A stretch of DNA of 64,000 nucleotides, taken from Candidatus Micrarchaeia archaeon (GTDB lineage: Archaea; Micrarchaeota; Micrarchaeia; Burarchaeales; Fermentimicrarchaeaceae). The notes beneath the pieces are model-generated. The model was not told where the DNA came from, did not search any database, and saw nothing but the letters and a program-made list of their open reading frames with translations. Shown in pieces: positions 11,609 through 47,858 of this stretch (its first letter is position 1; each line of letters opens with the position of its first letter). The stretch is taken from the NCBI GenBank assembly GCA_038871515.1, contig JAVZHX010000001.1:248212-312211 (forward strand). Direction: 5' to 3'. A program made the position numbers and the translations under genes.

Positions 11609-11622
11609 TCCACCCCTTGTGG

Positions 11623-11651: not shown

Positions 11652-11667
11652 TGCTCCCCCGCCAATT

Positions 11668-11698
11668 CAGGAAGAACTAGCAATTGCTAATTCTTTTT
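11668..11698 (-). mobile_element. 16S mini-intron, about 31 nt (between AAAGG and AATTGGCGGGGG)
   Basis: Interrupts conserved AAACTTAAAGGAATTGGCGGGGGAGCAC; near-palindrome AAGAATTAGCAATTGCTAGTTCTT; only a 16-nt exon (11652-11667) separates it from the previous intron. Confidence 0.55.
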
Positions 11699-11724
11699 CC
11701 TTTAAGTTTCAACCTTGCGGCCGT

Positions 11725-11765
11725 AATTGGGGAAGCCCGCGCCGATAAATTTCGGTTAGGCTTCT
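11725..11765 (-). mobile_element. 16S mini-intron, about 41 nt (between CTGGGGAG and ACGGCCGCAAGG)
   Basis: Interrupts conserved GCCGCCTGGGGAGTACGGCCGCAAGG. Confidence 0.5.
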
Positions 11766-11792
11766 CTCCCCAGGCGGCAGACTTAACACCTA

Positions 11793-11833
11793 CGCTACGG
11801 CACTGCCGTAACCCTAAGTTACGGCAACACCAC
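11793..11833 (-). mobile_element. 16S mini-intron, about 41 nt (between GCAGACT and TAGGTGTT)
   Basis: Interrupts conserved GATGCGGACTAGGTGTTGGG; internal hairpin TGCCGTAAC...GTTACGGCA. Confidence 0.5.
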
Positions 11834-11866
11834 AGTCTGCATAATTTACTGCTAGGGCTACTCGGG

Positions 11867-11897
11867 TGTTTAGTAACTCGAGAAGGTGCTCGAATCA
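11867..11897 (-). mobile_element. 16S mini-intron, about 31 nt (between GGATTAGATA and CCCGAGTAGCC)
   Basis: Interrupts the universally conserved 790-loop sequence GGATTAGATACCCGGGTAGTCC; internal hairpin TCGAG...CTCGA. Confidence 0.55.
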
Positions 11898-12873
11898 TAT
11901 CTAATCCGATTCGTTCTCCTAGCCTTCGTCCCTCACTGTCGGACGCGTTTTGGCCAAGCGCCTTCGCCACTGGGAGTCCTCACAGGATTAACGGATTTTA
12001 CCCCTACCCCGTGAGTACTCTTGGCCTCCCCCGCTCCCAAGCCCGCCAGTATTCTCTGCACTCCTTCGAGTTGAGCCCGAAGATTTCACAGAGAACTTAG
12101 CAGGCCAGCTACGGACTCTTTAGGCCCAATATACGTGGATACCACTCGAGCTGCCGGTGTTACCGCGGCGGCTGTCACCGGTCTTACCCAGCTCTTATTC
12201 CACAAGCTCCTTAAGCTTGTGAAAAGATGCTCGCGTGGAGCATCACTCAGAATCCCCTCGTCACGCTTGCGCGCATTGCGAAGGTTTCGCGCCTGCTGCA
12301 TCCCGTAGGACTGGAGCCCTTGTCTCAGTGCTCCTCTGGGGGCGCCAACTCCCATTGCCCCCACCGATTATCGGCTTGGTGGGCCGTTACCCCACCAACT
12401 ACCTAATCGGAAGCAGTCTCATCCTAAGGCGGAAATGGCTGCATTTCGCCATTCCTTTTGGGCTATGAAGCGTTCCAGCATCCATAGCCTATGTGGTATT
12501 AGCCTCAGTTTCCCGAGGTTATCCCCCTCCTTAGGGTAGATTGACTACTCGCTACTCAGCCGTACGCCACCCCTCCTAGCAGAAGGGGTAGACTTGCATG
12601 GCTTAGTCGGATTCTGATAGCAGTACCCTCCAGCAGGATCAACTGGAGTTTTTCACGTTTAGAGCACACTTCCGCAAGTTCGGCGTAAGCACCACTAATC
12701 GCTCACTTCTCCTGTTCTTGAAGCCTCAGTCAAACCCAAACCTGCTTGGATTTCCATCAGATTGTGTGCTATAGAGGAAAGGTATCTATCACAGCACGAA
12801 ATGAGAATTCGCGCTCCATTTACGCCGGAGTCTATAGCGTCCGCACGGCGAATAAAGATTATACACACTCTTA

Positions 12874-28410: not shown

Positions 28411-28656
28411 ATGGGAGAGGTTGCAGTTGTTGCAAAAGTATTTCCGGATTCTATGGAAGTTTTTGATGAGCTGAAAGAGAATATAAAGAAAAAAGTAAAC
28501 CCATACAAACTTGAGGAGGAGGAAATTGCTTTCGGAATGAAAGCGCTGAGAGTAACTGTTATTGTTAAGGATGCTGGCGGAGAAGACGTTGAGGAAAAGC
28601 TGAAAAGTTTAAAAGGAGTCAGCGAGGTTCAAATTGAGGAAGTTGGAAGAATCTAG
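28411..28656 (+). CDS. Translation elongation factor aEF-1 beta
   Basis: About 82 aa; GEVAVVAKVFPDS...AFGMKALRVTVIVKDAGG..VEEKL typical EF1B fold. Confidence 0.75.
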   Translation: MGEVAVVAKVFPDSMEVFDELKENIKKKVNPYKLEEEEIAFGMKALRVTVIVKDAGGEDVEEKLKSLKGVSEVQIEEVGRI

Positions 28657-29123
28657 CGCTTCACCATCTCCCTTATAACTTCCAATTTTCTGTTTATTTT
28701 CTCCCAGTGAGAGCCCTCCCAAAAAACCTTCTTGCACTCCCTGCACATCCAGAAAACCTCATGCTTTGCAACTATCTCCTCAGGAACTGTTTTTTTAACC
28801 TCCTTCCTTCCAACCTGTTTTAGCGTTCCATTGCACAGAGGGCAGAAAACAGTTGATGGTGCGTTTGACAAATTTATTTTGAACCTTCTGACAAGAAGCG
28901 CAAGCTGCTCATCTGTTTCCCTTCGTGGCATGAGAAAAACTCTCACCCCCTGCTTCCTTGCTCGCTTGCACAAATCAGAATCCATTGTAAGCAGAATTTT
29001 GTTTTTTTCCTTTGCAAACTCAATTATTTTATCATCATCAACAGAAGGAGGGTAAAGAACCTCCACTCCAAGCAATCTTAACCACCTTGCAAGCTTCTTC
29101 AGCATCACATCCGCAACGAACAT
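28653..29123 (-). CDS. Mut7-C RNase-like (PIN-like) domain protein with C-terminal zinc ribbon
   Basis: N-terminal MFVADVMLKKLARWLRLLG... and CPLCNG...CRECKK pair. Confidence 0.65.
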   Translation of the reverse strand: MFVADVMLKKLARWLRLLGVEVLYPPSVDDDKIIEFAKEKNKILLTMDSDLCKRARKQGVRVFLMPRRETDEQLALLVRRFKINLSNAPSTVFCPLCNGTLKQVGRKEVKKTVPEEIVAKHEVFWMCRECKKVFWEGSHWEKINRKLEVIREMVKR

Positions 29124-29158: not shown

Positions 29159-31426
29159 ATGATAGAAAAGCTCTGGCTGCGCAACTGGAAGTCGCACCAG
29201 GAAAGCTATTTTGAGTTTGGAAAGGGCACCAACCTGCTTGTTGGGCCGATGGGAAGCGGGAAAAGCACAGTGCTTGACGCTTTATGCTTTGCGCTTTTTG
29301 GAAGCTTCCCTGCTTTACAGCACAAGAGAGTTAAATTATCTGAAATTATAATGAGCAGGCCTGTTAAGGAGAAGGAAGCAGAGGTGAAGGTGGAGCTTGT
29401 TTGGGATGGGGTGAGGTATAGAATTGAGAGGAAAATCAGCTTGGATGGAAAAACAGAAGCAAGGATAAGCAGGGATGGAAAGCTTATTCAGGGACCACAG
29501 CCACAGAGGGTGAATGAGGAAGTTGAAAGGCTGCTTGGAGTTGACTATGATGTTTTCACAAGAGTTGTTTACTCAGAGCAGAACAGAATAGATTACTTTT
29601 TAACTTTGGGAAAAGGAGATAGAAAAACTCAAATTGATGAGCTTCTTGGGATAAGCAAGTTTGAAAACATGAGAACCAACCTCAGCACAATGCTCAACAA
29701 ACTGAGAGATATGAAAGAGAGCAGAAGCGAGCTTCTGAAAAATATGGATATTGAGAGAATAAAGAAGGAAGAAGCAGATGCGGAGGAGGAAGCTGAGAAA
29801 ATGAAAAGAGAGCTGAGTGAACTGGAAAGCAGGGAGAGGGAGCTTGAAAAAACAAAAGAGGAGGCGGAGAAGGAGCTTGAAAAATTTGAGGAGCTGGAGA
29901 GGGAGCACACGGCTCTCAGTGAAAAAAGAAGTGGGTTGACAAGAACAATTAGTGAGCTTGAGAGAGATGTTGAGAGGAAAACTGAGCTACTCAAAACAGA
30001 GAAAATTGAATTTGAAGAGAAGGAGTTAAGGAATTTGGAGAGGTTGTTGGAGGAGAAGAGGAAGGTTGTTGCGCGTTACACAAAGGAGATTGGTTCGTTG
30101 AGCGAAAGATTGAAAGTTGTTGAGGAGGAGGTTGAGGAGAGAAAGGAACTGGAGGAAAAATTGAGCAAAGAGAGAAGAGAGGGAGTTGAAAAGAAAAAAG
30201 AGAGTATTGAGAGGGAGTTGAGCGAAGTTAAGGGAAGTTTGAATTTTTCAAAGAGAAGAATTTCTGAGCTTGATGAAGTTATTGGTGAGTTAAGCAAAAA
30301 GTTAACCAAATGCCCTGTTTGTGAAACTCTTTTGAGTGAGGAGAGAAGAGTGGAGCTGCTGAGGAGAAGGGAGAAGGAGAGGGAGGAGGAGTTATCAAAA
30401 ATATCTGAGCTGGAAGCGAAAATTCAGGAGGGAAGCAAGGAGCTTGAAGAAGTTGCAAAGAAGTTGAAAATGTTAATTGAAGTTGAGGAGAGGTTGGGCA
30501 AGCTTAGGGATGAGAGGGAGCTTGAGAAACTGAAAGTTGTTTTGAGGGAGAGCGAGGAGAAGTTAAGAAAAGAGGAGGACGAGTTAAAGGAGCTTGAGAG
30601 AAAGGAGAAGATGATGAGAACGGCAAGCGAGGTAAATGATACAAAAAGGCGGATAAATGAATTGAAGAAGGAAGTTGAGGAAATTGAGGATAAAATTGAG
30701 AAGCTTGGGTTTGACAGAAAAGCTATGGAGGAGAGAAGGGAAATTGTTAAGAAGCTCAGCGTGGAGCACAGCAGAATTGCTGAGAGAGTTGAGGGAGTGA
30801 GGAAGGAGTTGAAGAGAGTTGAGGAAATGGTGAAAGTGAAAAAGGAGGAGAGGGAGAGGTATGAGAAGCTTGAGATGGAAGTGAAGAAGTACGATGAAAT
30901 TTATGGTAAGCTAGTTGTTTTTCAGAATGCAGTTCAAGAAACTCAGAAGGAGCTGAGGGAGGAGCTTGTTGAGGCAATAAACTCAGTTATGGGAAGCATA
31001 TGGAGCATAATCTACCCATACGGTGATTATAAAGGAGTAAGACTGAGCATAGAAGAAAACGACTATGAGTTGCAGCTTAACGCAGATGGGGTTTGGGTGA
31101 GCGTTGACGGAGTTGCAAGCGGTGGTGAGAGGACAAGCGCAACCATTGCGATGAGAATTGCGTTTGCGATGGTGCTTGTTCCAAATTTGGGATGGCTGAT
31201 ACTTGATGAGCCAACGCATAATTTAGATGAGGAGGGGAGAAAAGCGCTTGGGGCAGTTTTAAGCGAGCATGCGCCGAAAATAGTTGGGCAGATTTTTGTT
31301 ATAACTCATGATGAGGGTTTGAAGGATGCGATGAGCGGAAGGGTATACCGCCTGTGGAGGGATAAGGAGAGAAGTGGGCCTACCCAAATTGAGGAGGTAA
31401 ATATTTTAAATACCACGCAACAATAA
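29159..31426 (+). CDS. rad50: Rad50-like SMC-family ATPase with central CxxC zinc hook
   Basis: Walker A GPMGSGKST, central KCPVCETLL hook within long coiled coils, signature SGGERTSA, Walker B LILDEPT, H-loop VITHD. Confidence 0.8.
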   Translation: MIEKLWLRNWKSHQESYFEFGKGTNLLVGPMGSGKSTVLDALCFALFGSFPALQHKRVKLSEIIMSRPVKEKEAEVKVELVWDGVRYRIERKISLDGKTEARISRDGKLIQGPQPQRVNEEVERLLGVDYDVFTRVVYSEQNRIDYFLTLGKGDRKTQIDELLGISKFENMRTNLSTMLNKLRDMKESRSELLKNMDIERIKKEEADAEEEAEKMKRELSELESRERELEKTKEEAEKELEKFEELEREHTALSEKRSGLTRTISELERDVERKTELLKTEKIEFEEKELRNLERLLEEKRKVVARYTKEIGSLSERLKVVEEEVEERKELEEKLSKERREGVEKKKESIERELSEVKGSLNFSKRRISELDEVIGELSKKLTKCPVCETLLSEERRVELLRRREKEREEELSKISELEAKIQEGSKELEEVAKKLKMLIEVEERLGKLRDERELEKLKVVLRESEEKLRKEEDELKELERKEKMMRTASEVNDTKRRINELKKEVEEIEDKIEKLGFDRKAMEERREIVKKLSVEHSRIAERVEGVRKELKRVEEMVKVKKEERERYEKLEMEVKKYDEIYGKLVVFQNAVQETQKELREELVEAINSVMGSIWSIIYPYGDYKGVRLSIEENDYELQLNADGVWVSVDGVASGGERTSATIAMRIAFAMVLVPNLGWLILDEPTHNLDEEGRKALGAVLSEHAPKIVGQIFVITHDEGLKDAMSGRVYRLWRDKERSGPTQIEEVNILNTTQQ

Positions 31427-31453
31427 CTTTTCATTAAAAAATGGTGGGGAAGA

Positions 31454-31750
31454 ATGGAGGAAGAAAAGCAGTTGGAGCTTCTGAAAAACTCGGGAATTCT
31501 GTCTGAATTCGTGCAGAGCACTGGTGGGAACTGGAAGCATGAGGATTGGGAGAAGCTACTTGAGAGAGTGAGAGGGGAGAATATAACCCTCCCGCCGGAA
31601 GTGATTGGAACGCTGCTGGAAGCTGAGAGAGTTGCGTATATGGAGAAGTTAAGCAAGAGTGAGGGTGAAACTGCGGTGAATTTTGAGAAACTGACACTCA
31701 GAAAAAGAAGGAGGTATTTTGAGGAGGAAATTAAGAGGAGGATGAGGTGA
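31454..31750 (+). CDS. Hypothetical small charged protein, translationally coupled to the downstream MinD-like gene
   Basis: 98 aa, no motif; 4-nt gap to the next gene. Confidence 0.35.
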   Translation: MEEEKQLELLKNSGILSEFVQSTGGNWKHEDWEKLLERVRGENITLPPEVIGTLLEAERVAYMEKLSKSEGETAVNFEKLTLRKRRRYFEEEIKRRMR

Positions 31751-31754
31751 GGGA

Positions 31755-32489
31755 GTGATTATAACTGTTGCTTCTGGAAAGGGAGGAGTTGGGAAGAGCA
31801 ATTTGGTTGCAAACCTGGGTTTGTGCCTTGCTGACTTTGGAGTGGATACGCTTATTTTTGACGGCAATCTAACCAACGGAGATTTATCATGCATCCTCGG
31901 CCCTCCGTTCCCAGAGAGAACAATACAGGATGTTTTTTCAGATGGGATTAACTTCAACGATGTTATTTTCACCCACCCTGCAGGAGTTAAAATGATTGCA
32001 TCAAGCCTTTCGCTGGATGACATTGAAGCAGTCTCACCGCAGAACTTATGGAGGATACGCACCCAGCTGAGCAGGTCTGCGGACATTGTGCTTGTTGATG
32101 CGCCAGGAACGCTTGGAGGAAACACGCTTGAAGCGCTCAGAATAGCTGACAGAGTTATACTTATAACAACTCCTGAAATTACCTCTTTTTCAAACACGCT
32201 GAAAACAAAAATGGTTGCTGAGAGGAATGGAATAGAGATTTTTGGAACAGTGCTGAACAAAGTGAGGAAAAATGAGAAGGGAGTGAGAAGGCTTGCGAAG
32301 GAGTGGCTTGGAACGACTTTGCTGTGCAGCCTTCCTTATGACAACAATGTGATAAAATCATCTGAATACGGAAGGCCGGTTCTAAGACACAAGCCAAGAA
32401 GCCCGTACAGCATTGGGATAAGGAAGTTTGGAGCGAAGCTTGCAAACGTAACCTACAAACCAGGCAGAAAATCAAGGAAGCGCCGCTAG
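31755..32489 (+). CDS. MinD/ParA-family P-loop ATPase
   Basis: Deviant Walker A SGKGGVGKS. Confidence 0.8.
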   Translation: MIITVASGKGGVGKSNLVANLGLCLADFGVDTLIFDGNLTNGDLSCILGPPFPERTIQDVFSDGINFNDVIFTHPAGVKMIASSLSLDDIEAVSPQNLWRIRTQLSRSADIVLVDAPGTLGGNTLEALRIADRVILITTPEITSFSNTLKTKMVAERNGIEIFGTVLNKVRKNEKGVRRLAKEWLGTTLLCSLPYDNNVIKSSEYGRPVLRHKPRSPYSIGIRKFGAKLANVTYKPGRKSRKRR

Positions 32490-33449
32490 CTCGCTTGCTG
32501 CTTTTTCTGGCGGAAAAGTGTTGATTATTATATCGCTCCCTAGCTCAAAACCCGCAAGCTTTGCCAAACGAGGGCATATCTCAATATGAAAGTGATAATC
32601 CTGCAAGTGGGAGAGGTGCAGGTAATAATTATACGGTGGGTTGTTGAGCAACCTGTGAAGCTTGCTCAAAACTCTTTTCAATGCGTCTGCCATTGAATTT
32701 TTTTCCTCATCACTCAGCTCCGTTATGTTTTTCACGTGCTTCTTTGGGATAAGCCAAACTTCAAATGGAAAACGAGAGGCAAAAGGTGCAAAGCAGACAA
32801 AGTGGCTGTTTTCAAAAACCTTTCTTTCAGATTCAAGCTCCATTGCAATCACATCGCAGAAAATACACCTCTTATACTTTTCGTAATACTCCTTATACGC
32901 CTTCATCTCCTCCTCAACCAAAGAAGGTATTCTCGGAAGAGCAATTATCTGGCTGTGCTCATGAACAAGCGAGGTTCCTGCTTCCTCCCCATGATTCTTG
33001 AAAACCAGCACATATTCTATTCCTTTTATTTTTCTTATTTCATCAACGCGCATGCAATACATATCAATAACCTTTCTTATTCCCTCAGCTGGAAGCTCGT
33101 GAAGATTTAGTTTGTGCTGGTTTGTTTCCACAACAACCTCATGCTTACCAAATGCTTTTGGAAAGTTTGTTGAGGTTGCTGGGTACATATTTTCAAAGCA
33201 CCTCACCTCCCATTCCTTTTCGCCAATTCTTGCTATCTCCGGGGGAGTGAGCTTCTCATTCCCAGGGCAGAAAGGGCATGTTCCCTCCTTCAGAGGAGGA
33301 GCTGCTTTCGCGTATTCATGCGGTCTCCTGCTTCTGTTCTCTGCAATTATCACCCATCTATCCAGAATGCAATCCTTTCTTAATTCATTCATAAAATCAC
33401 TATAAGAATGCTTCAACCTCATTTTTCTTTTTTTCACCCAACTCCTCAA
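32472..33449 (-). CDS. Galactose-1-phosphate uridylyltransferase-like HIT-family nucleotidyltransferase (GalT / Ap4A phosphorylase family)
   Basis: CPFCPGNE zinc motif and HxHxQ-like VHEHSQ. Confidence 0.65.
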   Translation of the reverse strand: MRSWVKKRKMRLKHSYSDFMNELRKDCILDRWVIIAENRSRRPHEYAKAAPPLKEGTCPFCPGNEKLTPPEIARIGEKEWEVRCFENMYPATSTNFPKAFGKHEVVVETNQHKLNLHELPAEGIRKVIDMYCMRVDEIRKIKGIEYVLVFKNHGEEAGTSLVHEHSQIIALPRIPSLVEEEMKAYKEYYEKYKRCIFCDVIAMELESERKVFENSHFVCFAPFASRFPFEVWLIPKKHVKNITELSDEEKNSMADALKRVLSKLHRLLNNPPYNYYLHLSHLQDYHFHIEICPRLAKLAGFELGSDIIINTFPPEKAASELAALP

Positions 33450-34905
33450 ACCTCCTTGCTAAAACATCTATCTGCTCCCCTTTTAATGATTTTTTTGATT
33501 TTCTCTTCCTTATTTTAACAAACACTGGGAAGTTAAGCGCTTCCCCAACAATAAGCGCTTCCCCAACTCTCAGCGTTGTTATGTTTTTCAGCATGGACTC
33601 ATCAAGCGCCTCGCATCCCTCTCCAATATGTTTAATATCATTTGGGTTGGTTACCCTCATTATTATATGCGTGTTTGCCTGGGCAAGCGCAGTTGTGCTC
33701 AGCTGAACAGGCCTCTGGCTTATCAACCCAATGGATGCGCCGAACTTTCTCCCCTCCCTTGCTATTTTTTCTATTATACTTTTTGAAATCATATCCTCCT
33801 TTGACGCTTTCTCCTTCGCAAAGTTATGGGATTCCTCAACAAGCAGCACAAACGGGGGGATGCGTTCTTTTTTTCTTGCAGCAAAAAGCTTCCTCGCAAA
33901 GTATGCGACGATGAACTGCTTCTTCCTTAGTTCATTTATCTCGCTTAAATCTATCACTGAAAGCTTCCCTGGCTGAGCAAGCTCGTGCACGCTTGGCGAG
34001 TCATTCCTCCCAAACAACCTCATTGATTTTAAAGAGTAGAGAGTTGCAGCAAGCGATGCTTTTGTTGTTTCCTTTGTATCGCTCTCCTGAACTCTTTGAA
34101 TTACATCATCCAAGTCAAAAAGCTCTCCCTTGGTTTTCTTTTCCTGCTTAAGCTCAATCAAAATATTTTCAATATCCCTTTTCTGCGCAGAGCTGAGCTG
34201 CGGAAGGAACTCCCTCAGCATCTGCGGGGAAATCCTGCTCACTCCTATGCGCACCTTTCTTCCATCAAAAACATTTGTTTTGCTTGCATACTCCGGAGTG
34301 CTTTTGAAACCTCCATATTCTCCGTGGACGTCAACAATTATCACGGCAACCCTCCCCTGCTCAGGAGTTCTGTCAAGCAGCTCCTCAATTATCACGCTTG
34401 CCAGGTATGACTTTCCAGCCCCGCTCATCGCAAGTATTGCAAAATGCTTCTGAAGCAACCTGTTCAAATTCAGTTTCACATCAATTTTGTGATGCTCAAC
34501 TTCACCAATAAACAAACCTGCTGGGTCAAACCCAAGTATCCTTGTGAGTATATTCTCGTCTGCCAAGCTGACCTTGCTTCCAGGGGCGGGAGGGAATGCG
34601 TTGCGGAAAAGGTTTTCCTCCCTGTACGTGCCAAGAATTCTCACATCCGCAACTGTGTATTCCCACTCTGTTGTTGGGAAGTTCTTCAAGAGAGGCTCCC
34701 CTCCCCTTTCGTACTCGGCCACGCTCTCTGCCCTCTCAAAGTATCTATTCGCCCTTGTTATATCTGTTACAAAGCCAATGAGCAACCCATCCTCTGCTTC
34801 AATCTGCACATAGTGCCCTTTCCTAACTTTGCTGTTGTTAACAACAAATGAGAACTCGGTTGTTGAAGGACCATCAAACGTTGTTATCACAGTTCCAAGT
34901 TCCAT
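33400..34905 (-). CDS. herA: HerA-like (FtsK/HerA family, DUF87) hexameric ATPase/helicase
   Basis: Walker A AILAMSGAGKSY, Walker B VLLVEESHNF, about 500 aa, NurA gene upstream. Confidence 0.7.
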   Translation of the reverse strand: MELGTVITTFDGPSTTEFSFVVNNSKVRKGHYVQIEAEDGLLIGFVTDITRANRYFERAESVAEYERGGEPLLKNFPTTEWEYTVADVRILGTYREENLFRNAFPPAPGSKVSLADENILTRILGFDPAGLFIGEVEHHKIDVKLNLNRLLQKHFAILAMSGAGKSYLASVIIEELLDRTPEQGRVAVIIVDVHGEYGGFKSTPEYASKTNVFDGRKVRIGVSRISPQMLREFLPQLSSAQKRDIENILIELKQEKKTKGELFDLDDVIQRVQESDTKETTKASLAATLYSLKSMRLFGRNDSPSVHELAQPGKLSVIDLSEINELRKKQFIVAYFARKLFAARKKERIPPFVLLVEESHNFAKEKASKEDMISKSIIEKIAREGRKFGASIGLISQRPVQLSTTALAQANTHIIMRVTNPNDIKHIGEGCEALDESMLKNITTLRVGEALIVGEALNFPVFVKIRKRKSKKSLKGEQIDVLARRFEELGEKKKNEVEAFL

Positions 34906-34937: not shown

Positions 34938-35663
34938 CTATAGAGAGGGTAACTTTCCAGTGATTAGGAAAATTAAAAGAACTGCAGAGATGATTGTTAA
35001 GAGAATGTGAATGAGGAATGAAATTGAGAAGGAGAGAACTGCGATTAATGGGTTGAAAGAGTGAATTTCCTTTATTGTTACGAGAGTTAGGAAAATTCCG
35101 TATAATGAAATTATCACAAACCCAATCAGGGAGAGGATGAAACCGAAGTATGGAATTGTTATAAGTATAGCTGCAAATATGTAGAATGGAGCAAGCGCCA
35201 ATGCAACATATGAGAGCAGGCATGCCTGCTCAACAAACGTTCCTTTTCCACCAAGCATTTTCGCTGGCAGGTATAGAATTGCTGATGAAACTAACCACGA
35301 TATAACTGCAATCCCAAACCCATAGATTGTTGTTATGAGCAAGCTGAATAGAGTTGATGGTTGCAACATAACTTCAGGAAGTCTCAACAGAAAGAGAACT
35401 GCAAGCATCACAAGGATTCGGAACGCAGTTGCAATTAAATACAGCAGAGAAACATTCATAAATCCTCTCAGAAGCGAGGAATGGTATTTGAGTTTTTTTA
35501 CAGCACGCAGCGGTTCAATGTATAGCGAAATTACTGCGTCAGTTATTTTTGGCGCGCTTTCCTCTTTGTAAAACTCCTCGGCGCTTCTGTCAAACGACAT
35601 AACTTCTTTAGGTGATGTGAGAAGGTTCCCACAAACAGGGCATTTTCCATTCAAGGAGAGCAC
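34938..35663 (-). CDS. Polytopic membrane protein (Yip1-like) with N-terminal CxxC zinc ribbon
   Basis: N-terminal GKCPVCGNLL then five or more TM helices; located between nurA and herA. Confidence 0.4.
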   Translation of the reverse strand: MLSLNGKCPVCGNLLTSPKEVMSFDRSAEEFYKEESAPKITDAVISLYIEPLRAVKKLKYHSSLLRGFMNVSLLYLIATAFRILVMLAVLFLLRLPEVMLQPSTLFSLLITTIYGFGIAVISWLVSSAILYLPAKMLGGKGTFVEQACLLSYVALALAPFYIFAAILITIPYFGFILSLIGFVIISLYGIFLTLVTIKEIHSFNPLIAVLSFSISFLIHILLTIISAVLLIFLITGKLPSL

Positions 35664-35745: not shown

Positions 35746-36792
35746 TCACCTGAAAGGCCTGCTGTTGCTTCTCAAAGGAAGGAATGAAACTCTTCTCCCA
35801 GCTCTGAGCAGAAGGTTCTGGCAAACTCTTTCAACCTCCTCTCTTTCCAACGCAGCCCTCATATCAGCTTCTATCAGCACTGCGGGGTATGCATACTTCT
35901 GGTTAATTCTGCTTAAGGAGTATATTAAAGATGCTACCTCAGAAGCCGTTCTCTCTGCTTTTAGAAACTCAACGCGCAGCGGTCTATCGTTTTTAACTGG
36001 TTTCACGTAAAATGCATGAACGCTCGCTCCCCACTTCCCCAAATCCTTCAGCACCTGGTGCTCCCTCTCAGGGCTTGAGTAGTGAAACTCAAAAACCCTC
36101 TCCCCTTCGTTTAGAAGAAAATGCAGGAAGGAGGTGTCGTTGGATGTTTTCAGAATCTCCCCCTCCGCAATAGTTTTTTCAACTATCTCTATAAACCTCT
36201 TCCCCCTGCTGTCCTTTATCACTCCTATCAACTGGCAGTTATTCTCTTTGCAGTAAGAATAAAGGGAGTTGTACAATTCAAGCAGTGAATTATAAAGCGG
36301 GCGCACCGATGAGTTTTCTGATGGTTTGTCAGAAATCTGAGGAACAATTGAGCCGTCAAGCAGAAGGTAATCTGGCTTGAATTTCTTTACTGTTTCACAA
36401 GCAGTTTCAACCTCCTTCTTCAACCTTGCAAGCGATTTATGCCATGTGAACTCGTGCGAGTCAAGCGCTGTGAGCGCGCTTGGCTCTGCTTCAGGAGCGC
36501 GGGATGGGTGGTAGCTGTGTGAAATTCTTTTTGAGTTTTTGTATTCAAATATCACCGAAACTGCTCTTGTTAAAACTAAATCAAACCCGTGAAACTCCTG
36601 CGCGCCCAACCCCCCATCAACAGCTGCAACCCTGCAGTTCAGCTCAACAGGTTCAACTTTGTGAATTAAACCTTTCTCAAGCGCTTCTGGATAAACCTCT
36701 CTCCCTTCCTCGCGAAGTTTCTCCGCCAACTCCGCCCTTTTCCTCTCAAGCTCATCCATTCTATTTATAAGCTCAGCCAGCTTTTCATGCAT
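35746..36792 (-). CDS. nurA: NurA-like 5-prime to 3-prime nuclease
   Basis: VAAVDGGLG motif (NurA catalytic Asp region), size about 350 aa, adjacent herA. Confidence 0.6.
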   Translation of the reverse strand: MHEKLAELINRMDELERKRAELAEKLREEGREVYPEALEKGLIHKVEPVELNCRVAAVDGGLGAQEFHGFDLVLTRAVSVIFEYKNSKRISHSYHPSRAPEAEPSALTALDSHEFTWHKSLARLKKEVETACETVKKFKPDYLLLDGSIVPQISDKPSENSSVRPLYNSLLELYNSLYSYCKENNCQLIGVIKDSRGKRFIEIVEKTIAEGEILKTSNDTSFLHFLLNEGERVFEFHYSSPEREHQVLKDLGKWGASVHAFYVKPVKNDRPLRVEFLKAERTASEVASLIYSLSRINQKYAYPAVLIEADMRAALEREEVERVCQNLLLRAGRRVSFLPLRSNSRPFR

Positions 36793-39040: not shown

Positions 39041-39478
39041 TTGTGGATGAGCAATTCTATGGGTGTTTTTATGAGGATACTCAGACCAGAAAGATCTGTG
39101 TTTTTCAACCCAGAAATGCAGGCTGCTTTGGAAAGGGAGAGAAATAGAAGGGCTGTGGAAATGCTGACAAGCAACAAAAGTGAGGAGCGCATGGAGGCTG
39201 CGGAGAGACTGCTTAAAGTTGTTAAAGACAGCTCAGTGAGAAAGGAGCTTGAGCTTGTGCGTGACATTGCAAAGGAGAGCAGAATAATTGAAAAAATAGA
39301 GAAAGAGGAGGGGAAGATTGATGCAATGCCAAAGGAGAAAGCTGCAAAATACGCTTCATACATAAAAGATTATACAGAGAGAAAGGAGGAAGCAGCAGAG
39401 AATATTGCAAGGTTTATATCTGAAAGAAAGATGAGCGATGTGGAGCTGCAGGAGAATTTGAAAAAAGTGCTAGCCTGA
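39041..39478 (+). CDS. Hypothetical coiled-coil protein (145 aa)
   Basis: Charged, heptad-like E/K/R-rich sequence. Confidence 0.3.
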   Translation: MWMSNSMGVFMRILRPERSVFFNPEMQAALERERNRRAVEMLTSNKSEERMEAAERLLKVVKDSSVRKELELVRDIAKESRIIEKIEKEEGKIDAMPKEKAAKYASYIKDYTERKEEAAENIARFISERKMSDVELQENLKKVLA

Positions 39479-40195
39479 TTTATAATAATCGCAGAGTTTA
39501 TTCAGCACACATAAGTTACATTCTGGATTCCTTGCTCTGCATATCTTTCTTCCGTGAAGTATGAAGTTTATGTGAAGGGTTTTCTTCTCATCAGAAGGGA
39601 TAAGTTCATTCATAATTTTATGGGCTTTCTCAGAGCTTGCTTCTTCTGGTATCAACCCCAACCTCTTGGCAATTCGCATATTATGTGTGTCCAGAGGCAT
39701 TGTTGGCTTGTTGAAGCAGAAAAGCAGAAGCACGCTTGCGGTTTTTGGCCCAATTCCGTCAATTGAGCGAAGGAATTCAAATGCATCATCAGCAGACATT
39801 TTACTTAGAAAATCCAGGCTCAGCTTCCCTCTTCTCCTCCTTATCTCGCTAAGCGCCTTTTTTATTCTACGCGCTTTTATTTTTGACAAACCACCTGGGC
39901 GAATTGCTTTCTGAATTTTTCCTAAATCTGCATCAAGAACAAGCTCCCATTTTGGAAACTTCCGTTTGAGACTGAAAAAAGCAGCTTGGGAGTTCCTGTC
40001 GCTTGTATTCTGAGATAAAATTGTTCCAACTAAAACGTCAAGGGGGTTGCTCCTTTCGTCTATGGAGTGAACCCCGTACTCCCGCTTCAAAATTTCTATA
40101 ACTTCTTTCAGCTTTTTCACGCATTTATTTAAAGCACGAAATAATAAATGACTACATGAAAGGAATTTGTTCAATTTGTGGAAGGGAAACCGCAA
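39470..40195 (-). CDS. nth: Endonuclease III (HhH-GPD DNA glycosylase with [4Fe-4S] cluster loop)
   Basis: LVGTILSQNTSD HhH-GPD region and C-terminal CxxxxxxCxxCxxxxxC (CRARNPECNLCVLNKLC). Confidence 0.8.
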   Translation of the reverse strand: MRFPFHKLNKFLSCSHLLFRALNKCVKKLKEVIEILKREYGVHSIDERSNPLDVLVGTILSQNTSDRNSQAAFFSLKRKFPKWELVLDADLGKIQKAIRPGGLSKIKARRIKKALSEIRRRRGKLSLDFLSKMSADDAFEFLRSIDGIGPKTASVLLLFCFNKPTMPLDTHNMRIAKRLGLIPEEASSEKAHKIMNELIPSDEKKTLHINFILHGRKICRARNPECNLCVLNKLCDYYKSG

Positions 40196-40295
40196 GCTTT
40201 ACGTGCAGTTTATGTGGTGCGCTTGTTGGGGTGAACTGCTACGACCCTGTGGGAAAGGTTTGCATACGCTGCAAGGCAGGAAGGATGATTAGATG
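40157..40295 (+). CDS. Small Zn-ribbon protein (45 aa; CSICGRE...CSLCGA...CIRCK)
   Basis: Cys pairs; overlaps start of the downstream primase-polymerase-like gene; not in ORF track. Confidence 0.35.
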
Positions 40296-41198
40296 AGCTT
40301 AGCTGAGCTTGCGAAGAATAAAGATGTAGTGAAACCATTTGGAGAAGTTGACGTTCTGCTTTACTATGGAATTGTGGGAAGCAAGCTTGTTGGTTTTTTG
40401 AAGGGAAAGGAGCTTGCAGCGAAAAACTGGTTCCCTCCAAAAGGTGGTTTGCCAACAGTTCTTAAAAGAGGTTCAAAGGAGGAGCCGCTTTACATAGATG
40501 AATTTGTTGATGCGATAACACCTGGGTTTCTCTCATTGAGAGGGAAGCACCTTGAGGAAGTTAGAGATAAACTCGCTCCTTCCCAGCAGAAAGTGTGGCG
40601 CTACTTTGTCCCAAGGAAGCTCTCTGATTTGTTTTATGCGACAAACAATGAGGGGGAAGGTAAATCTATCGACAGAATTTTCTTTGATTTGGATAGGGGG
40701 GAGGGAGTTACTTCTGAATATGCACAGCAGGTAGCAAGGGAGTTCCTTGCTGTTATGGAGGATGATTTGAGGGAGTTGAACTGCGAAAAAAGATTTGTGA
40801 TGTGGACTGGGAGCTCCTTTCATGTTTATCTATTTCTCAAGAAGAGAATGCCTCCCTCCTTTTACGAGGAAAACTTTCAGGTCAGCACAAAAGGTGGACT
40901 TCAAACAGCAGCGCAGAAGTGGGTTGATGAGTTGAAGAAAAAAGGGTTGAAGGTGAGCGGGAGCCATGAAAAAATTGCGGGAGTTGTTGCAATAGACCCA
41001 TCTCAAACTCCCTCAGGGAAATTGGCAAGAGCTCCCTTCTCGCTGCACATGCAGGATTATAAAACAATCAATGGGGTTGCAATTCCGCTTGATTTGAACA
41101 TGCTTGATGATAAGAAATTGGTAGAGGAGCTGAAGCAGTATACGCCAAACAGAGTCGTTGAGGAGCTGAACTCTCTTTCAAAAAGACTGCCATTGTGA
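40293..41198 (+). CDS. Archaeo-eukaryotic primase (AEP) superfamily protein resembling the LigD polymerase/primase domain (NHEJ PolDom-like)
   Basis: Motif I FFDLDRGE, motif II WTGSSFHVYLFL, motif III region VAIDPSQTPSGKLARAPFSLH (compare LigD aPYSlR). Confidence 0.6.
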   Translation: MSLAELAKNKDVVKPFGEVDVLLYYGIVGSKLVGFLKGKELAAKNWFPPKGGLPTVLKRGSKEEPLYIDEFVDAITPGFLSLRGKHLEEVRDKLAPSQQKVWRYFVPRKLSDLFYATNNEGEGKSIDRIFFDLDRGEGVTSEYAQQVAREFLAVMEDDLRELNCEKRFVMWTGSSFHVYLFLKKRMPPSFYEENFQVSTKGGLQTAAQKWVDELKKKGLKVSGSHEKIAGVVAIDPSQTPSGKLARAPFSLHMQDYKTINGVAIPLDLNMLDDKKLVEELKQYTPNRVVEELNSLSKRLPL

Positions 41199-45665: not shown

Positions 45666-47858
45666 TTATTTTATGAGTTTTTCAAGAATCTCCTTTGCTG
45701 CTTTTTTATTCAAATTCCTGTTATTATTCCCGCACTGCGGATCCAGAATGCAGGAGGGGCAACCACTTCTGCACTTGCACTTCATCAATCTTTCATACGC
45801 CATCTTTTCAACTCTCTCAAACTTTTCAAAAATTATTTTTGACAATCCAGCTCCGTGAGGAGTTGAATCGTAAACATACATCCTCCCAGCAGGATAGCTC
45901 ACCCCTCCCAACTCAGATGGATCTGCTCCAGTTAAAGCAGGCATCATCGCAATTGAAACATGCTCAACTGCATGCAACCCAGATGGAAAATCATCTACGG
46001 AAAAAACAATTTTCTCAGGAAAATCAAACCAAACTGCAAGAGTGTCAAACTCATAATGCAACGGCTCATCAAGCGGAATTCTGCTGCTTATCCTCTCTTT
46101 CAAATAATCCTTCACAACATAACCGTAAACCTCATCTGAAATGTGAACTCTACCGTATGAAAGCTCCCCTCCCAAACACTCCCTTTCTCCAAGCAACTCA
46201 GTCACTTCGGCTTCTCTGTTGCGCAGAGCAACTGTATACTCAGATGTTTCATAACTGAGCTTTCTCACAAATGCAATTTTTCTCACCAAATCCAGCTTCT
46301 CAGAAACAAACTTCTCCCCTCCATGTAAGTAGATTGCACCGGGGAATAGCTCGCTGTACGCCATCGCCTCCTCCCTTTCACCTATGAACTTCTCTCTCTC
46401 CACATCATATATCCTTATTGACGAGCCAGCCGTCCTTATGCTCATCTCCCTCACAACCCTCAGCCCTCTCCTTGTAGGAATCCAGCAACCTGCAAACTCC
46501 TTGCACAGCTCCTCAGCTTTCAGCTGAGAGAAAAGCTTCTCCCCCATTGGAAATGAGTTGATTTCGTCAATGCTTGCTGGGTAATCCCGCATCATTGAGA
46601 GAAGGTGGGGTTTTAGTATAAACTCATTCTGGGGGTTTACGTAACAGCTCTCCGGCTCCCCTTTCAAATACTCATGTGGATTTTCAAAATAATACTGGTC
46701 AAGCGGGTTGTCTCGAGCGATGAAAACAGCTGTTGCCTCCCTTCCCCTCCTTCCTGCCCTTCCAATTCTCTGCCTCACCCTTGTAACCGTTCCTGGGAAG
46801 CCAGCAAGAATTACTAAGTCAACGGCACCTATATCCATCCCAAGCTCCAAAGCAGATGTTGCGACAAGCGCATCCGTACTGCCTGACTTGAACTCCTGCT
46901 CCAACTTCCTTCTCTCCTCCCTCTCCAATCCAGCCCGGTATATTTTTATTTCATGTAAATTCGTTTCCTTTGCAACTATCCCAATTCTCTCAACAACAGA
47001 GTGGCTGTTCCCAAATATCAGCAGCTTCCTTCCTTTTCCAATAAGCTGCCTTGCAACTTTCAAGGCAAGCGTTGTATAGCTCTCCCTCCCCTCCTCTGTT
47101 AAAGGAGGGTTCAGCAGTATGTGCTTAACCGTGCTTCTTGGAGCATAGCGCGCATCCACCAAAGAGAAAGGCACCCCTGCAAGCTGCTCGGCAAACTCCA
47201 ATGCATTCCCAACAGTTGCTGAACAGCAGATGAACTGCAGTTTATTTTTGGAGTATTTCAAGTGAACTCTCTTCAACCTTTTTATTATATTTGAGGAGTG
47301 GCTTCCAAACGTTCCCGTGTATGTATGTATTTCATCAATTACAACAAACTTCAAGTAAGAAAGAAACTTTTTGAACAGATGCGAGTTAAGGAGAATGAAG
47401 TGAAGCATATCCATATTTGTTATCAAAATATGCGGTGGCTCCTTCCTTATTCTTTCCCTAATATGCGCAGATGTATCACCATCATAAACCTCGCTTTTCA
47501 CACCAAGCAGAGCAAACTCCCTAAATCTTGCTAGCTGATCCCGCGAAAGCGCTTTTGTTGGGTAGATAACAATGCTCCTCTCTCCTTTCAACGCGGACTC
47601 AATAACTGGAATCATATATATTTCAGTTTTGCCAGAGGCAGTTGGAGCAGTTACAACAACATTCTCCCCTTCTCTCACTTTTTTGATTCCGTCTGCCTGA
47701 TGCTTGTAAAACTTCTCAATTCCTCTCCCATGCAGAATATGCATTATTTCCTCTGAAACTTCAACCTCCCCGAACTTCGCAGAATCTCCTTTCTCCAGAA
47801 ACTCCTTTACTTCCCCTTCTATAAGCACGAATATATTTCGTAAGAAAGCAATAAACAA
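45666..47858 (-). CDS. DEXH-box helicase with C-terminal DUF1998 (MZB) zinc-binding domain, YprA/MrfA-like
   Basis: Walker A APTASGKT, DEIH box, helicase-C, C-terminal four-Cys cluster CKCRSGCPSC...C. Confidence 0.75.
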   Translation of the reverse strand: MFIAFLRNIFVLIEGEVKEFLEKGDSAKFGEVEVSEEIMHILHGRGIEKFYKHQADGIKKVREGENVVVTAPTASGKTEIYMIPVIESALKGERSIVIYPTKALSRDQLARFREFALLGVKSEVYDGDTSAHIRERIRKEPPHILITNMDMLHFILLNSHLFKKFLSYLKFVVIDEIHTYTGTFGSHSSNIIKRLKRVHLKYSKNKLQFICCSATVGNALEFAEQLAGVPFSLVDARYAPRSTVKHILLNPPLTEEGRESYTTLALKVARQLIGKGRKLLIFGNSHSVVERIGIVAKETNLHEIKIYRAGLEREERRKLEQEFKSGSTDALVATSALELGMDIGAVDLVILAGFPGTVTRVRQRIGRAGRRGREATAVFIARDNPLDQYYFENPHEYLKGEPESCYVNPQNEFILKPHLLSMMRDYPASIDEINSFPMGEKLFSQLKAEELCKEFAGCWIPTRRGLRVVREMSIRTAGSSIRIYDVEREKFIGEREEAMAYSELFPGAIYLHGGEKFVSEKLDLVRKIAFVRKLSYETSEYTVALRNREAEVTELLGERECLGGELSYGRVHISDEVYGYVVKDYLKERISSRIPLDEPLHYEFDTLAVWFDFPEKIVFSVDDFPSGLHAVEHVSIAMMPALTGADPSELGGVSYPAGRMYVYDSTPHGAGLSKIIFEKFERVEKMAYERLMKCKCRSGCPSCILDPQCGNNNRNLNKKAAKEILEKLIK

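What the first reader, a model, noticed from the sequence alone, without database searches (positions are those of the whole stretch)
29159..32489. rad50 without adjacent mre11; followed by a coupled small ORF plus MinD/ParA-like ATPase
The Rad50-like gene has Walker A/B, a CxxC hook and the SGGE signature. It is 755 aa, shorter than most archaeal Rad50. No calcineurin-like Mre11 gene is next to it. Instead a 98-aa charged protein and a MinD/ParA ATPase follow with 27-nt and 4-nt gaps. This could be a reorganised DSB-repair locus. It could instead be an SMC-like ATPase working with a ParA-type partner, as in partition or defence modules.
Basis: partly seen in the sequence, partly recalled or inferred. 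Interest (0 to 1): 0.5.

Follow-up and report, generated by a model that had tools for sequence, protein, structure and literature searches.

The report
Micrarchaeal rad50 beside a MinD–partner gene pair
This is the ordinary, compact Rad50 DNA-repair ATPase of a tiny DPANN archaeon, in a shuffled repair neighbourhood that keeps herA and nurA but not mre11; the two genes after it are a separate pair, an archaeal MinD ATPase and a small undescribed partner protein.

Summary
A 755-aa Rad50-type gene (29159-31426) has Walker A, Q-loop, a CPVC hook, SGGE, Walker B and H-loop. A conserved 98-aa ORF follows after 27 nt and an archaeal MinD after 4 nt. No Mre11 lies in the 64-kb window.

This is a rearranged archaeal DSB-repair neighbourhood, not an orphan SMC-like ATPase.

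The window comes from a Micrarchaeota (DPANN) genome. Lengths of 738-800 aa are normal for this Rad50 clade. Orthologues in Aenigmarchaeota and a Hadarchaeota-type genome (34% identity, full length) sit in mre11-rad50 operons. They score lower on the Rad50 profile than this protein. Six Micrarchaeota lineages lack an adjacent mre11. Whether the genome has mre11 elsewhere could not be tested.

orf98-minD is its own unit. The pair keeps a 4-17 nt spacing in lineages where rad50 is not upstream. More distant Micrarchaeota rad50 loci lack it. orf98 founds an undescribed family, probably a MinD adaptor or activator (inferred).

Nothing supports a Rad50-ParA machine or a defence system. Interest is modest.

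The parts
29159..31426 (+). rad50: compact (755 aa) DPANN-type Rad50 ABC-ATPase with a coiled coil and a CPVC zinc hook
   Evidence: Pfam AAA_23, SMC_N and SbcC_Walker_B. Best NCBIfam model is Rad50 PRK03918 at 250 bits. Best PDB matches are P. furiosus and M. jannaschii Rad50 heads at 3e-30, plus hook fragments. It aligns over the full length at 34% identity to the Mre11-linked Rad50s of L005 and L006. No SD precedes the ATG, and an A/T-rich 35-nt region is shared with the divergent Mut7-C gene.
31454..31750 (+). orf98: small conserved protein, a founding member of an undescribed MinD-associated family. It has an acidic N-terminal helical module, a flexible linker and a conserved basic C-terminal helix.
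31755..32489 (+). minD: archaeal MinD-type deviant-Walker-A ATPase, translationally coupled to orf98 (4-nt gap, GAGGTGA SD)
   Evidence: TIGR01969 minD_arch scores 186.4 bits against a cut-off of 201.75. Pfam ParA, CbiA and AAA_31. Best PDB match is A. fulgidus MinD-1 (1HYQ) at 3e-41. KGGVGKS lies at residues 9-15 and VLVDAP at 112-117. It is 98%, 84-90% and 66-67% identical in relatives whose Rad50 is only 73%, 55% and 61% identical.
33400..34905 (-). herA: HAS-barrel plus FtsK-like ATPase, the DSB-resection helicase
   Evidence: Pfam DUF87/HerA central domain at 5e-37 and HAS-barrel. NCBIfam helicase_HerA at 185 bits and HerA_Thermprot at 180 bits, both above the antiphage HerA models at 120 bits.
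35746..36792 (-). nurA: the 5'-3' nuclease partner of HerA
   Evidence: Pfam NurA at 4e-19, 69 bits against a cut-off of 21. Conserved at 77-90% identity in relatives.
34938..35663 (-). Yip1-domain membrane protein between herA and nurA. It is context only, and is absent in L009.
   Evidence: Pfam Yip1 at 4e-10.
32472..33449 (-). GalT/HIT-family nucleotidyltransferase, convergent with minD and directly downstream of herA. It is context only.
   Evidence: Pfam GalP_UDP_transf N and C domains and DUF4921; TIGR00209 at 120 bits against a cut-off of 102.
28653..29123 (-). Mut7-C (PIN-like nuclease domain plus Zn ribbon) gene, divergent from rad50 with a 35-nt shared intergenic region. It is the conserved neighbour of rad50 in 4 of 6 Micrarchaeota lineages.
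   Evidence: Pfam Mut7-C at 3e-45. It is 38-91% identical in relatives.

Best explanation
Two independent things lie side by side.

(1) Gene 29159-31426 is the organism's bona fide Rad50. It has an ABC-ATPase head, two ~220-235-residue antiparallel coiled-coil arms, and a CPVC zinc hook. It is the compact form typical of DPANN and Hadarchaeota archaea. In Micrarchaeota the ancestral mre11-rad50 operon has been broken up. herA and nurA stay 2-5 kb away on the opposite strand, so the locus is a rearranged archaeal herA/mre11/rad50/nurA neighbourhood. Rad50 is inferred to work as elsewhere: ATP-dependent head dimerisation on DNA ends, hook-mediated tethering, a nuclease partner, and then HerA-NurA resection. 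The nuclease partner is most likely an unlinked Mre11, but this was not shown.

(2) orf98 and minD form a separate, translationally coupled cassette. It encodes an archaeal MinD-type positioning ATPase and a cognate small partner from an undescribed family. The partner has an acidic four-helix N-terminal module, a flexible linker, and a conserved basic amphipathic C-terminal helix. It is inferred to act as MinE, ParB, McdB or PomX do for their ParA/MinD ATPases: it links the ATPase to a cargo or surface and stimulates ATP turnover through its basic tail.

In one Micrarchaeota sub-lineage (Rad50 47-73% identical to the window's) the cassette sits just downstream of rad50. There it is probably co-transcribed: 25-51 nt gaps in the closest clade but 172 nt in L009, SD-like GGTG before orf98, and no SD before rad50. 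This is best read as operon hitch-hiking in a compact genome, not a Rad50-MinD machine.
For: Rad50 identity:
- The rank order of NCBIfam models is Rad50 250 bits, arcadin-4 195, ASRP 118, SbcC 64, SMC 59.
- The best solved homologues are archaeal Rad50 heads and hooks.
- All catalytic motifs are intact.
- Rad50s in true mre11-rad50 operons (L005 Aenigmarchaeota, L006) align over the full length at 34% identity. They score lower on the same Rad50 model (179 and 205 bits), with the Rad50 models again ranking first, above arcadin-4, ASRP, SbcC and SMC.
- The 120 best homologues are mostly 738-800 aa, from Micrarchaeota, Aenigmarchaeota, Nanoarchaeota and Hadarchaeota.

Repair context:
- HerA and NurA are identified by Pfam and NCBIfam.
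- They are conserved next to the locus in all close relatives.

Broken mre11 linkage:
- No Metallophos gene lies near rad50 in L001, L002, the P0030 contig, L004, L007 or L008.
- None is found in the 64-kb window.

The pair as a unit:
- The orf-minD gap is 4 nt in 11 loci, 14 nt in L009, 17 nt in L010 and 9 nt on the P0149 contig.
- L010 and the P0149 contig have other genes upstream, not rad50.
- rad50 loci at 35-39% identity lack the pair.
- MinD is far more conserved than its neighbours.

Operon signals: SD-like motifs precede orf98 and minD but not rad50.
Against: - Rad50 falls below every NCBIfam equivalog cut-off (250 vs 700 bits), and Pfam Rad50_zn_hook did not reach E<0.01.
- No Mre11 was found anywhere I could look, so 'unlinked Mre11' is an assumption.
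- The rad50-orf98-minD order persists to lineages with only 47-61% Rad50 identity. L009 shows it directly. P0131 probably lies on the same 14,181-bp contig as Rad50 P0017, but only matching contig lengths support this.
- The short rad50-orf98 gaps suggest co-transcription, which could reflect a functional link.
- The partner role of orf98 rests only on conserved adjacency and architecture. No interaction, structure of a complex, or similarity to a known activator was shown.
- MinD scores just under the TIGR01969 cut-off.
Confidence: 0.62

Rival explanations
1. Mre11-independent Rad50. Micrarchaeota have lost Mre11 altogether. Their Rad50 works with another nuclease, either NurA-HerA encoded nearby or the divergently transcribed Mut7-C/PIN-like protein, or it acts purely as a DNA-tethering factor.
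For: No mre11 lies next to rad50 in six Micrarchaeota lineages, nor in the 64-kb window, although sister lineages keep the operon. Mut7-C is the conserved divergent neighbour in 4 of the 6 lineages, with only 35 nt between the start codons here. DPANN genomes are reduced. A profile search with Mre11 listed no protein named as Micrarchaeota among its best 120 hits, which is weak evidence.
Against: Absence from the whole genome was never tested. One search's list was saturated by Hadarchaeota and Aenigmarchaeota close to the queries, so it is uninformative. aS21-EF1beta-Mut7C-rad50 is part of a generally collinear block, so adjacency may be plain synteny. From established knowledge, Rad50 without Mre11/SbcD is very rare in cellular genomes, and unlinked genes are the simpler explanation.
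Confidence: 0.15
2. rad50, orf98 and minD form one functional module. A MinD/ParA-type ATPase and its adaptor would position or load the Rad50 complex on the nucleoid, or Rad50 would serve as an SMC-like chromosome organiser in a partition-like system.
For: The same-strand order rad50-orf98-minD is conserved in the Fermentimicrarchaeum-like clade and in L009. The gaps are 25-51 nt, with SD-like motifs typical of internal cistrons. orf98 has a basic tail that could bind DNA, and its N-terminal module is often fused to Lys-rich basic tails in other proteins.
Against: The pair occurs without rad50 (L010 and the P0149 contig). rad50 occurs without the pair. In L009 the rad50-orf gap is 172 nt while the orf-minD gap is 14 nt. 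In the clade with the triad, unrelated flanking genes (EF1beta, GalT, PTH2) are equally collinear. MinD evolves much more slowly than Rad50 or orf98, which points to an independent housekeeping role.
Confidence: 0.12
3. The locus is an anti-virus defence system built on an SMC-like ATPase (Lamassu LmuB, PARIS AriA, Wadjet JetC or Dnd/Pbe type), with HerA as a further defence ATPase.
For: PADLOC profiles give weak hits: LmuB 119 bits, mad3 112, AriA 70; the defence HerA models score up to 182 bits.
Against: Rad50 profiles score twice as high, and the hook and solved Rad50 structures match. HerA scores higher on the DSB-repair models than on the antiphage models in NCBIfam (185 vs 120 bits), and it is paired with NurA. 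No effector, LmuA, AriB or JetABD partner is present. The locus sits in a stable housekeeping block that is collinear across relatives down to 55% Rad50 identity, not in a variable island. GC content is uniform.
Confidence: 0.02

Closest known systems
Archaeal Mre11-Rad50 and the herA-mre11-rad50-nurA cluster of thermophilic archaea (Sulfolobus, Pyrococcus; PMC2288612, PMC3326311)
   Same: A Rad50 with the full set of ABC-ATPase motifs, a coiled coil and a CxxC hook. HerA and NurA are encoded within 5 kb. The presumed role is DNA-end recognition and resection.
   Different: No mre11 gene lies in the cluster or within 64 kb. rad50 and herA/nurA are on opposite strands, separated by unrelated genes (orf98, minD, GalT, Yip1). 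The coiled coil is roughly 50-60 residues shorter per arm than in the 880-aa enzymes. Scores fall below the NCBIfam equivalog cut-offs.
mre11-rad50 operons of Aenigmarchaeota and Hadarchaeota
   Same: They carry the same compact Rad50 subtype (788-800 aa), 34% identical over the full length, with Rad50 as the best-scoring profile family (PRK03918 first).
   Different: In those genomes a 412-433-aa Metallophos Mre11 directly precedes rad50 or overlaps its start. Here, and in five other Micrarchaeota lineages, it does not.
Archaeal MinD (A. fulgidus MinD-1 1HYQ, Pyrococcus MinD 1G3Q/1ION; Haloferax MinD4 and MinD2, bioRxiv 10.1101/2020.04.03.021790, PMC11588486)
   Same: A deviant Walker A KGGVGKS motif and a size of ~245 aa. 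The best sequence matches are to these proteins. It is expected to act as an ATP-dependent dimeric positioning switch.
   Different: The score is just below the TIGR01969 cut-off. The protein ends in a highly basic tail (8 K/R in the last 20 residues) rather than an obvious amphipathic membrane helix. It is preceded by a dedicated small partner gene. I know of no partner of this family described for any archaeal MinD; this was not searched exhaustively.
Partner and activator proteins of ParA/MinD ATPases: MinE, ParB N-terminal peptide, McdB, PomX, and SegB of the archaeal SegAB system
   Same: A small protein is encoded in tight translational coupling with the ATPase. It has a folded module plus a flexible, positively charged terminal peptide, which is the general logic of ATPase-activating partners (from established knowledge).
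   Different: There is no detectable sequence or fold similarity to any of them. The gene order is partner then ATPase. The protein is all-helical, so it is not the ribbon-helix-helix of SegB or ParG. The basic peptide is C-terminal. Activation and binding are untested.
Arcadin-4 (Rkd4) and archaea-specific SMC-related proteins (ASRP)
   Same: They are Rad50-like ABC-ATPases of similar length and give the second and third best NCBIfam hits (195 and 118 bits).
   Different: The scores are far below the cut-offs (860 and 300 bits) and below the Rad50 score. Mre11-linked Rad50s show the same secondary hits, so these reflect general Rad50 similarity. There is no crenactin/arcadin operon here.

Membership tests
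Rad50 (archaeal DSB-repair ATPase) | ABC-ATPase head with Walker A, Q-loop, signature motif, Walker B, D-loop and H-loop split between the N and C termini | tested here: met
   GPMGSGKS 29-36, Q141, SGGE 654-657, WLILDE 679-684, PTHNLD 685-690, H717. The head matches PDB Rad50 at 3e-30.
Rad50 (archaeal DSB-repair ATPase) | Central CxxC zinc hook at the apex of a long antiparallel coiled coil | tested here: met
   CPVC lies at 385-388, midway along the protein. Sequence matches to hook structures 1L8D (1.6e-5) and 6ZFF (6e-5) cover residues 334-452. Residues ~170-590 have a charged, Leu-rich composition. Pfam Rad50_zn_hook was not reported at E<0.01 for this protein, but it is recorded for many orthologues.
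Rad50 (archaeal DSB-repair ATPase) | Scores above the curated family cut-off of a Rad50 equivalog model | tested here: not met
   The best score is 250.5 bits against a cut-off of 700 (NF003034). Rad50s encoded in real mre11-rad50 operons score even lower, at 179 and 205 bits. The cut-off therefore excludes the whole DPANN/Hadarchaeota subtype.
Rad50 (archaeal DSB-repair ATPase) | Orthology to Rad50s that are partnered with Mre11 | tested here: met
   Full-length collinear alignment (q1-748 of 755) at 34% identity, E about 1e-122 to 1e-125, to the L005 and L006 Rad50s. These lie immediately downstream of Metallophos Mre11 genes. No formal tree was built.
Rad50 (archaeal DSB-repair ATPase) | A cognate Mre11 nuclease in the same genome (usually the adjacent gene) | tested here: inconclusive
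   Adjacency is not met: none in the 64-kb window and none near rad50 in 6 Micrarchaeota lineages. Presence elsewhere in the genome could not be tested with these tools.
herA-mre11-rad50-nurA DSB-repair cluster | herA and nurA encoded with rad50 and mre11 in one cluster or operon | tested here: not met
   herA and nurA are present within 5 kb. However, they lie on the opposite strand, are interrupted by unrelated genes, and mre11 is absent. This is a remnant or rearranged cluster, not the canonical operon.
Archaeal MinD (TIGR01969 minD_arch) | Deviant Walker A with signature lysine (KGGxGK[ST]) and the ParA/MinD fold | tested here: met
   KGGVGKS at residues 9-15 and VLVDAP at 112-117. Pfam ParA, CbiA and AAA_31. 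Best PDB match 1HYQ at 3e-41.
Archaeal MinD (TIGR01969 minD_arch) | Score above the curated cut-off | tested here: not met
   186.4 bits against a cut-off of 201.75. This is a near miss. The next best model is bacterial MinD at 77.6 bits, and ParA_partition scores only 37 bits.
Bacterial-type Min system (MinCDE) | MinE and/or MinC partner, and a C-terminal amphipathic membrane-targeting helix on MinD | tested here: not met
   orf98 has no MinE or MinC hit in Pfam or NCBIfam. The MinD C-terminus is a basic tail, KPGRKSRKRR. No membrane binding was tested.
SegAB / ParAB-type partition system | ParA-type ATPase plus a site-specific DNA-binding partner (RHH or HTH ParB/SegB), with gene order ATPase then partner | tested here: not met
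Lamassu / PARIS / Wadjet-type SMC-like defence ATPases | Best match to LmuB, AriA or JetC, with cognate effector or partner genes, in a variable island | tested here: not met
   LmuB scores 119 bits and AriA 70 bits, both below Rad50 at 250 bits. No partner genes are present. The housekeeping synteny is conserved.
Arcadin-4 (Rkd4) | Score above the cut-off, and location in a crenactin/arcadin operon | tested here: not met
   195 bits against a cut-off of 860. No actin-like or arcadin genes are nearby. Mre11-linked Rad50s show the same secondary hit.

The most novel reading that the evidence does not exclude
Micrarchaeota have dispensed with Mre11. In one sub-lineage, Rad50 is expressed from a single transcript with a new MinD-adaptor pair. 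Rad50 would then act as an Mre11-independent, SMC-like DNA tether. Its placement on the nucleoid, or its coupling to division in these ultrasmall cells, would be organised by a MinD-type ATPase through the orf98 adaptor. Resection would be left to HerA-NurA or the divergently encoded Mut7-C nuclease.
Probability: 0.06. Interest if true: 0.75.

Novelty: new variant of a known kind. Interest (0 to 1): 0.3.

Why it matters
- The Rad50 gene itself is ordinary. The analysis mainly removes a false lead and corrects the picture by adding herA and nurA to the locus.

- mre11-rad50 linkage is among the most conserved two-gene arrangements in prokaryotes, from established knowledge. It appears to be broken throughout a DPANN phylum. 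A single genome-wide search would show whether these reduced archaea run Rad50 without Mre11.

- Archaeal MinD proteins are widespread, yet no dedicated partner has been described for them, to my knowledge. A small protein family translationally coupled to minD across rearranged contexts is a concrete, testable candidate for an archaeal MinD adaptor or activator.

- The N-terminal module of orf98 is an unannotated repeat domain found in many other proteins.

Tried and rejected
**Approaches that led nowhere**
An alignment query would have been the better choice.
- The protein search with a two-sequence Mre11 profile listed only Hadarchaeota, Aenigmarchaeota and Hodarchaeaceae proteins in its top 120. 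It says nothing about Micrarchaeota.
- Literature searches for Mre11 or Rad50 in Micrarchaeota or DPANN, and for Rad50-MinD operons, found nothing pertinent. The 2026 archaeal Dip oscillator preprint (PMC13228585) concerns a GTPase system unrelated to MinD.
The 5-sequence alignment found only 7 loci, all from the same clade.
- The sigma-70 promoter and terminator scan is not meaningful for an archaeon and showed no enrichment.

**Ideas tested and rejected**
- orf98 as a split-off Mre11 Rad50-binding domain: blastp against two Mre11s gave nothing better than E=3.
- Defence-system reading.
- The longer 804-aa rad50 ORF from the TTG at 29012: it overlaps the Mut7-C gene and is not supported by homologues.

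Full report
**What is there**

- rad50 runs 29159-31426 (755 aa).
- A 27-nt gap follows, with GGTGGGG 5 nt before the next ATG.
- orf98 runs 31454-31750.
- A 4-nt gap follows, preceded by GAGGTGAGGGA.
- minD runs 31755-32489 and starts with GTG.

The mechanical ORF from the TTG at 29012 (804 aa) is not the gene. Its first 49 codons overlap the divergent Mut7-C gene, and all homologues start at MIEKL.

The Rad50 motifs are all present:
- Walker A, GPMGSGKS, 29-36
- Q-loop, Q141
- CPVC hook, 385-388
- SGGE, 654-657
- Walker B, WLILDE, 679-684
- D-loop, 685-690
- H717

**Origin of the window**

The closest Rad50 homologues are unnamed metagenome proteins at 57-73% identity. They are followed by proteins named Candidatus Micrarchaeota and Ca. 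Fermentimicrarchaeum limneticum at 55-56%. An orf98 identical to the window's is annotated in a 'Candidatus Micrarchaeia archaeon' MAG, GCA_038883955.1. The window is therefore from a DPANN archaeon of the Micrarchaeota. GC content is an even 42-47% across the window, with no island-like discontinuity at the locus.

**Is it a real Rad50?**

- NCBIfam ranks Rad50 first (PRK03918, 250 bits). Arcadin-4 follows at 195, ASRP at 118, SbcC at 64 and SMC at 59. All are below their equivalog cut-offs.
- The best solved relatives are P. furiosus and M. jannaschii Rad50 heads (3e-30). The region around CPVC matches the solved Rad50 hook fragments 1L8D and 6ZFF.
- Two orthologues sit immediately downstream of 412-433-aa Metallophos Mre11 genes. 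They are the Aenigmarchaeota L005 protein (788 aa) and the L006 protein (800 aa), which is of Hadarchaeota type judging by Mre11 names.
- Both align with the window protein end to end at 34% identity.
- On the same NCBIfam models they score lower than the window protein (179 and 205 bits); the Rad50 models again rank first, and arcadin-4, ASRP, SbcC and SMC appear only as weaker secondary hits.

The sub-threshold scores and the arcadin-4 and ASRP hits are therefore properties of the whole compact DPANN/Hadarchaeota Rad50 subtype. They do not indicate a paralogue. Lengths of 738-800 aa dominate the 120 best homologues, so 'shorter than most archaeal Rad50' is true but typical of the clade. Defence-ATPase profiles (LmuB 119 bits, AriA 70) are much weaker.

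On the minus strand, just downstream, lie four genes:
- a GalT/HIT-family gene (32472-33449)
- herA (33400-34905; DUF87/HerA 5e-37, HAS-barrel; NCBIfam DSB-repair HerA 185 bits against 120 for the antiphage HerA)
- a Yip1 membrane protein (34938-35663)
- nurA (35746-36792; Pfam NurA 4e-19)

The locus is therefore a rearranged version of the archaeal herA/mre11/rad50/nurA neighbourhood (PMC2288612, PMC3326311), lacking only mre11.

**Mre11**

No Mre11 is detectable in the window.
- A motif regex found nothing.
- tblastn with the L005 and L006 Mre11s found nothing below E=4.
- Pfam on the neighbours and the larger remaining ORFs found no metallophosphoesterase.

None lies within 6-10 kb of rad50 in six Micrarchaeota lineages:
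- L001 at 73% Rad50 identity
- L002, Fermentimicrarchaeum, at 55%
- the P0030 contig at 37%
- L004 at 35%
- L007 at 35%
- L008 at 39%

The seven metagenome loci also lack it. The loss of linkage therefore looks phylum-wide, in contrast to the sister lineages.

I could not test whether mre11 exists elsewhere in these genomes. The Mre11 profile search was saturated by close relatives of the queries. The only genome-contig scan was wasted on a single-protein query. The literature held nothing. This is the main open point.

**orf98 and minD**

orf98 has no Pfam, NCBIfam or PADLOC match, but it is clearly a gene. Orthologues are 57-81% identical, with 45 invariant columns. AlphaFold predicts five helices at pLDDT 78, with a disordered linker at residues 70-77. 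No fold match is significant.

A profile search of 1.84 billion representatives gave 92 hits. Two observations follow.
- The N-terminal ~60-residue module (FVxxxxGxWxHxxWExxL...VGxLLE) is an unannotated domain. It also occurs in tandem copies in longer proteins and before Lys-rich tails.
- A subset shares orf98's full architecture: one module, a variable linker, and the C-terminal motif F[DE]xL..[KR][KR]R..Y. The members are P0124, P0129, P0131, P0140, P0148-P0152 and P0172.

Residues 1-65 are acidic (pI 4.7) and residues 66-98 basic (pI 10.5).

MinD is an archaeal MinD.
- TIGR01969 scores 186 bits, just under the 201.75 cut-off, while bacterial MinD scores 78 and ParA_partition 37.
- The best solved relative is A. 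fulgidus MinD-1 at 3e-41.
- KGGVGKS lies at residues 9-15.

**Which genes go together?**

The block EF1beta | Mut7-C <- -> rad50 orf98 minD <- GalT herA Yip1 nurA -> PTH2 is fully collinear in every locus of the Fermentimicrarchaeum-like clade. Adjacency there is no more informative for rad50-minD than for EF1beta-rad50.

The informative cases are the rearranged ones.
- L009 (Rad50 61%, orf 45%, MinD 66%) keeps rad50-orf-minD. The rad50-orf gap is 172 nt and the orf-minD gap 14 nt.
- L010 (orf 30%, MinD 67%) has a divergent TPR gene upstream instead of rad50, with an orf-minD gap of 17 nt.
- The P0149 contig has two small divergent genes upstream and a MinD 9 nt downstream.
- Conversely, rad50 loci at 35-39% identity have no orf98-minD.

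The orf-minD gap is exactly 4 nt with a conserved AGGTGAG in 11 loci. MinD is also far better conserved than its neighbours: 98% against 73% for Rad50 in L001, and 84-90% against 55% in the Fermentimicrarchaeum clade.

I conclude that orf98-minD is the functional unit and that its position after rad50 is lineage-specific. Within that lineage the three genes are probably co-transcribed. The gaps are 25-51 nt, SD-like GGTG precedes orf98, and rad50 has no SD and sits 35 nt from the divergent Mut7-C start. This is inference from sequence only.

**Mechanism**

Shown here:
- the Rad50 domain and motif set and its orthology to Mre11-linked Rad50s
- the presence of HerA and NurA
- the MinD family assignment
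- conservation and tight coupling of orf98-minD across rearrangements

Inferred:
- Rad50 acts in end recognition and tethering with an unlinked Mre11, upstream of HerA-NurA resection.
- orf98 binds MinD. Its basic C-terminal helix on a flexible linker stimulates MinD or recruits it, by analogy with MinE, ParB, McdB and PomX (established knowledge of ParA/MinD systems). Its N-terminal module binds a cargo.

Neither interaction was testable with these tools.

**Rivals**

- An Mre11-less Rad50 is plausible for a reduced DPANN genome but untested. The conserved divergent Mut7-C nuclease is a curiosity here.
- A genuine Rad50-orf98-MinD module is disfavoured by the independent distributions of the parts.
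- A defence system is disfavoured by profile scores, missing partners and stable housekeeping synteny.

**Verdict**

The locus is a reorganised repair locus. It is not an SMC-ParA partition or defence module.
- Novelty lies in the gene-order variant and in the undescribed MinD-associated small-protein family.
- Interest is 0.3.

Noticed in passing
window 2761-12649 (minus strand): The rRNA operon carries large insertions. The LSU rRNA spans 4876 nt for a 2987-nt model. The SSU rRNA is split by Rfam into 9631-12649 plus a 3' piece at 8902-9025. ORFs inside or next to these genes carry LAGLIDADG homing-endonuclease domains: 5873-6745, 7552-8469 and 8948-9601. Further ORFs without a clear family lie at 3466-4374, 9862-10710 and 10748-11275. 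These look like multiple rRNA introns with homing endonucleases.
   Followed up: partly
window 8746-8801 (minus strand): Rfam reports a weak tRNA match (40 bits) between the SSU and LSU rRNA genes that ARAGORN does not call. It may be a spacer tRNA that is degenerate or contains an intron.
   Followed up: no
window 28653-29123 (minus strand): A Mut7-C (PIN-like nuclease plus Zn ribbon) gene is transcribed divergently from rad50, with only 35 nt between the start codons. The same arrangement, with aS21 and EF1beta beyond it, recurs in 4 of 6 Micrarchaeota lineages. This may be plain synteny, or a nuclease linked to Rad50 where Mre11 is missing.
   Followed up: partly
window 31454-31650 (orf98 residues 1-65), and P0126, P0127, P0174, P0184 and others: The N-terminal module of orf98 (FVxxxxGxWxHxxWExxL...VGxLLE) is a domain not covered by Pfam. 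It occurs as 2-8 tandem repeats in proteins of 150-700 aa, often followed by Lys/Ala/Pro-rich basic tails.
   Followed up: partly
window 31755-32489 compared with L001, L002, L014-L020: MinD is strikingly more conserved than every neighbouring gene. It is 98% identical where Rad50 is 73%, and 84-90% where Rad50 is 55% and HerA/NurA are 76-79%. This suggests a strongly constrained housekeeping role.
   Followed up: no
window 39470-41198 and 45666-47858: Further DNA-repair genes lie near the locus: an HhH-GPD glycosylase, a stand-alone LigD-type primase-polymerase domain protein, and a DEAD-box helicase with an MrfA Zn-binding domain. The first two are also collinear in L001 and L002.
   Followed up: no
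L005 11744-14263 (minus strand): In the Aenigmarchaeota locus the HerA homologue is 839 aa. tblastn splits it into two blocks about 1 kb apart, which suggests an intein or a large insertion. A Cas1-Cas2-Cas4 module follows.
   Followed up: no
L007 2040-5879: In another Micrarchaeota genome the gene upstream of rad50 is a 1279-aa T2SSE-type ATPase containing an intein with a LAGLIDADG domain.
   Followed up: no
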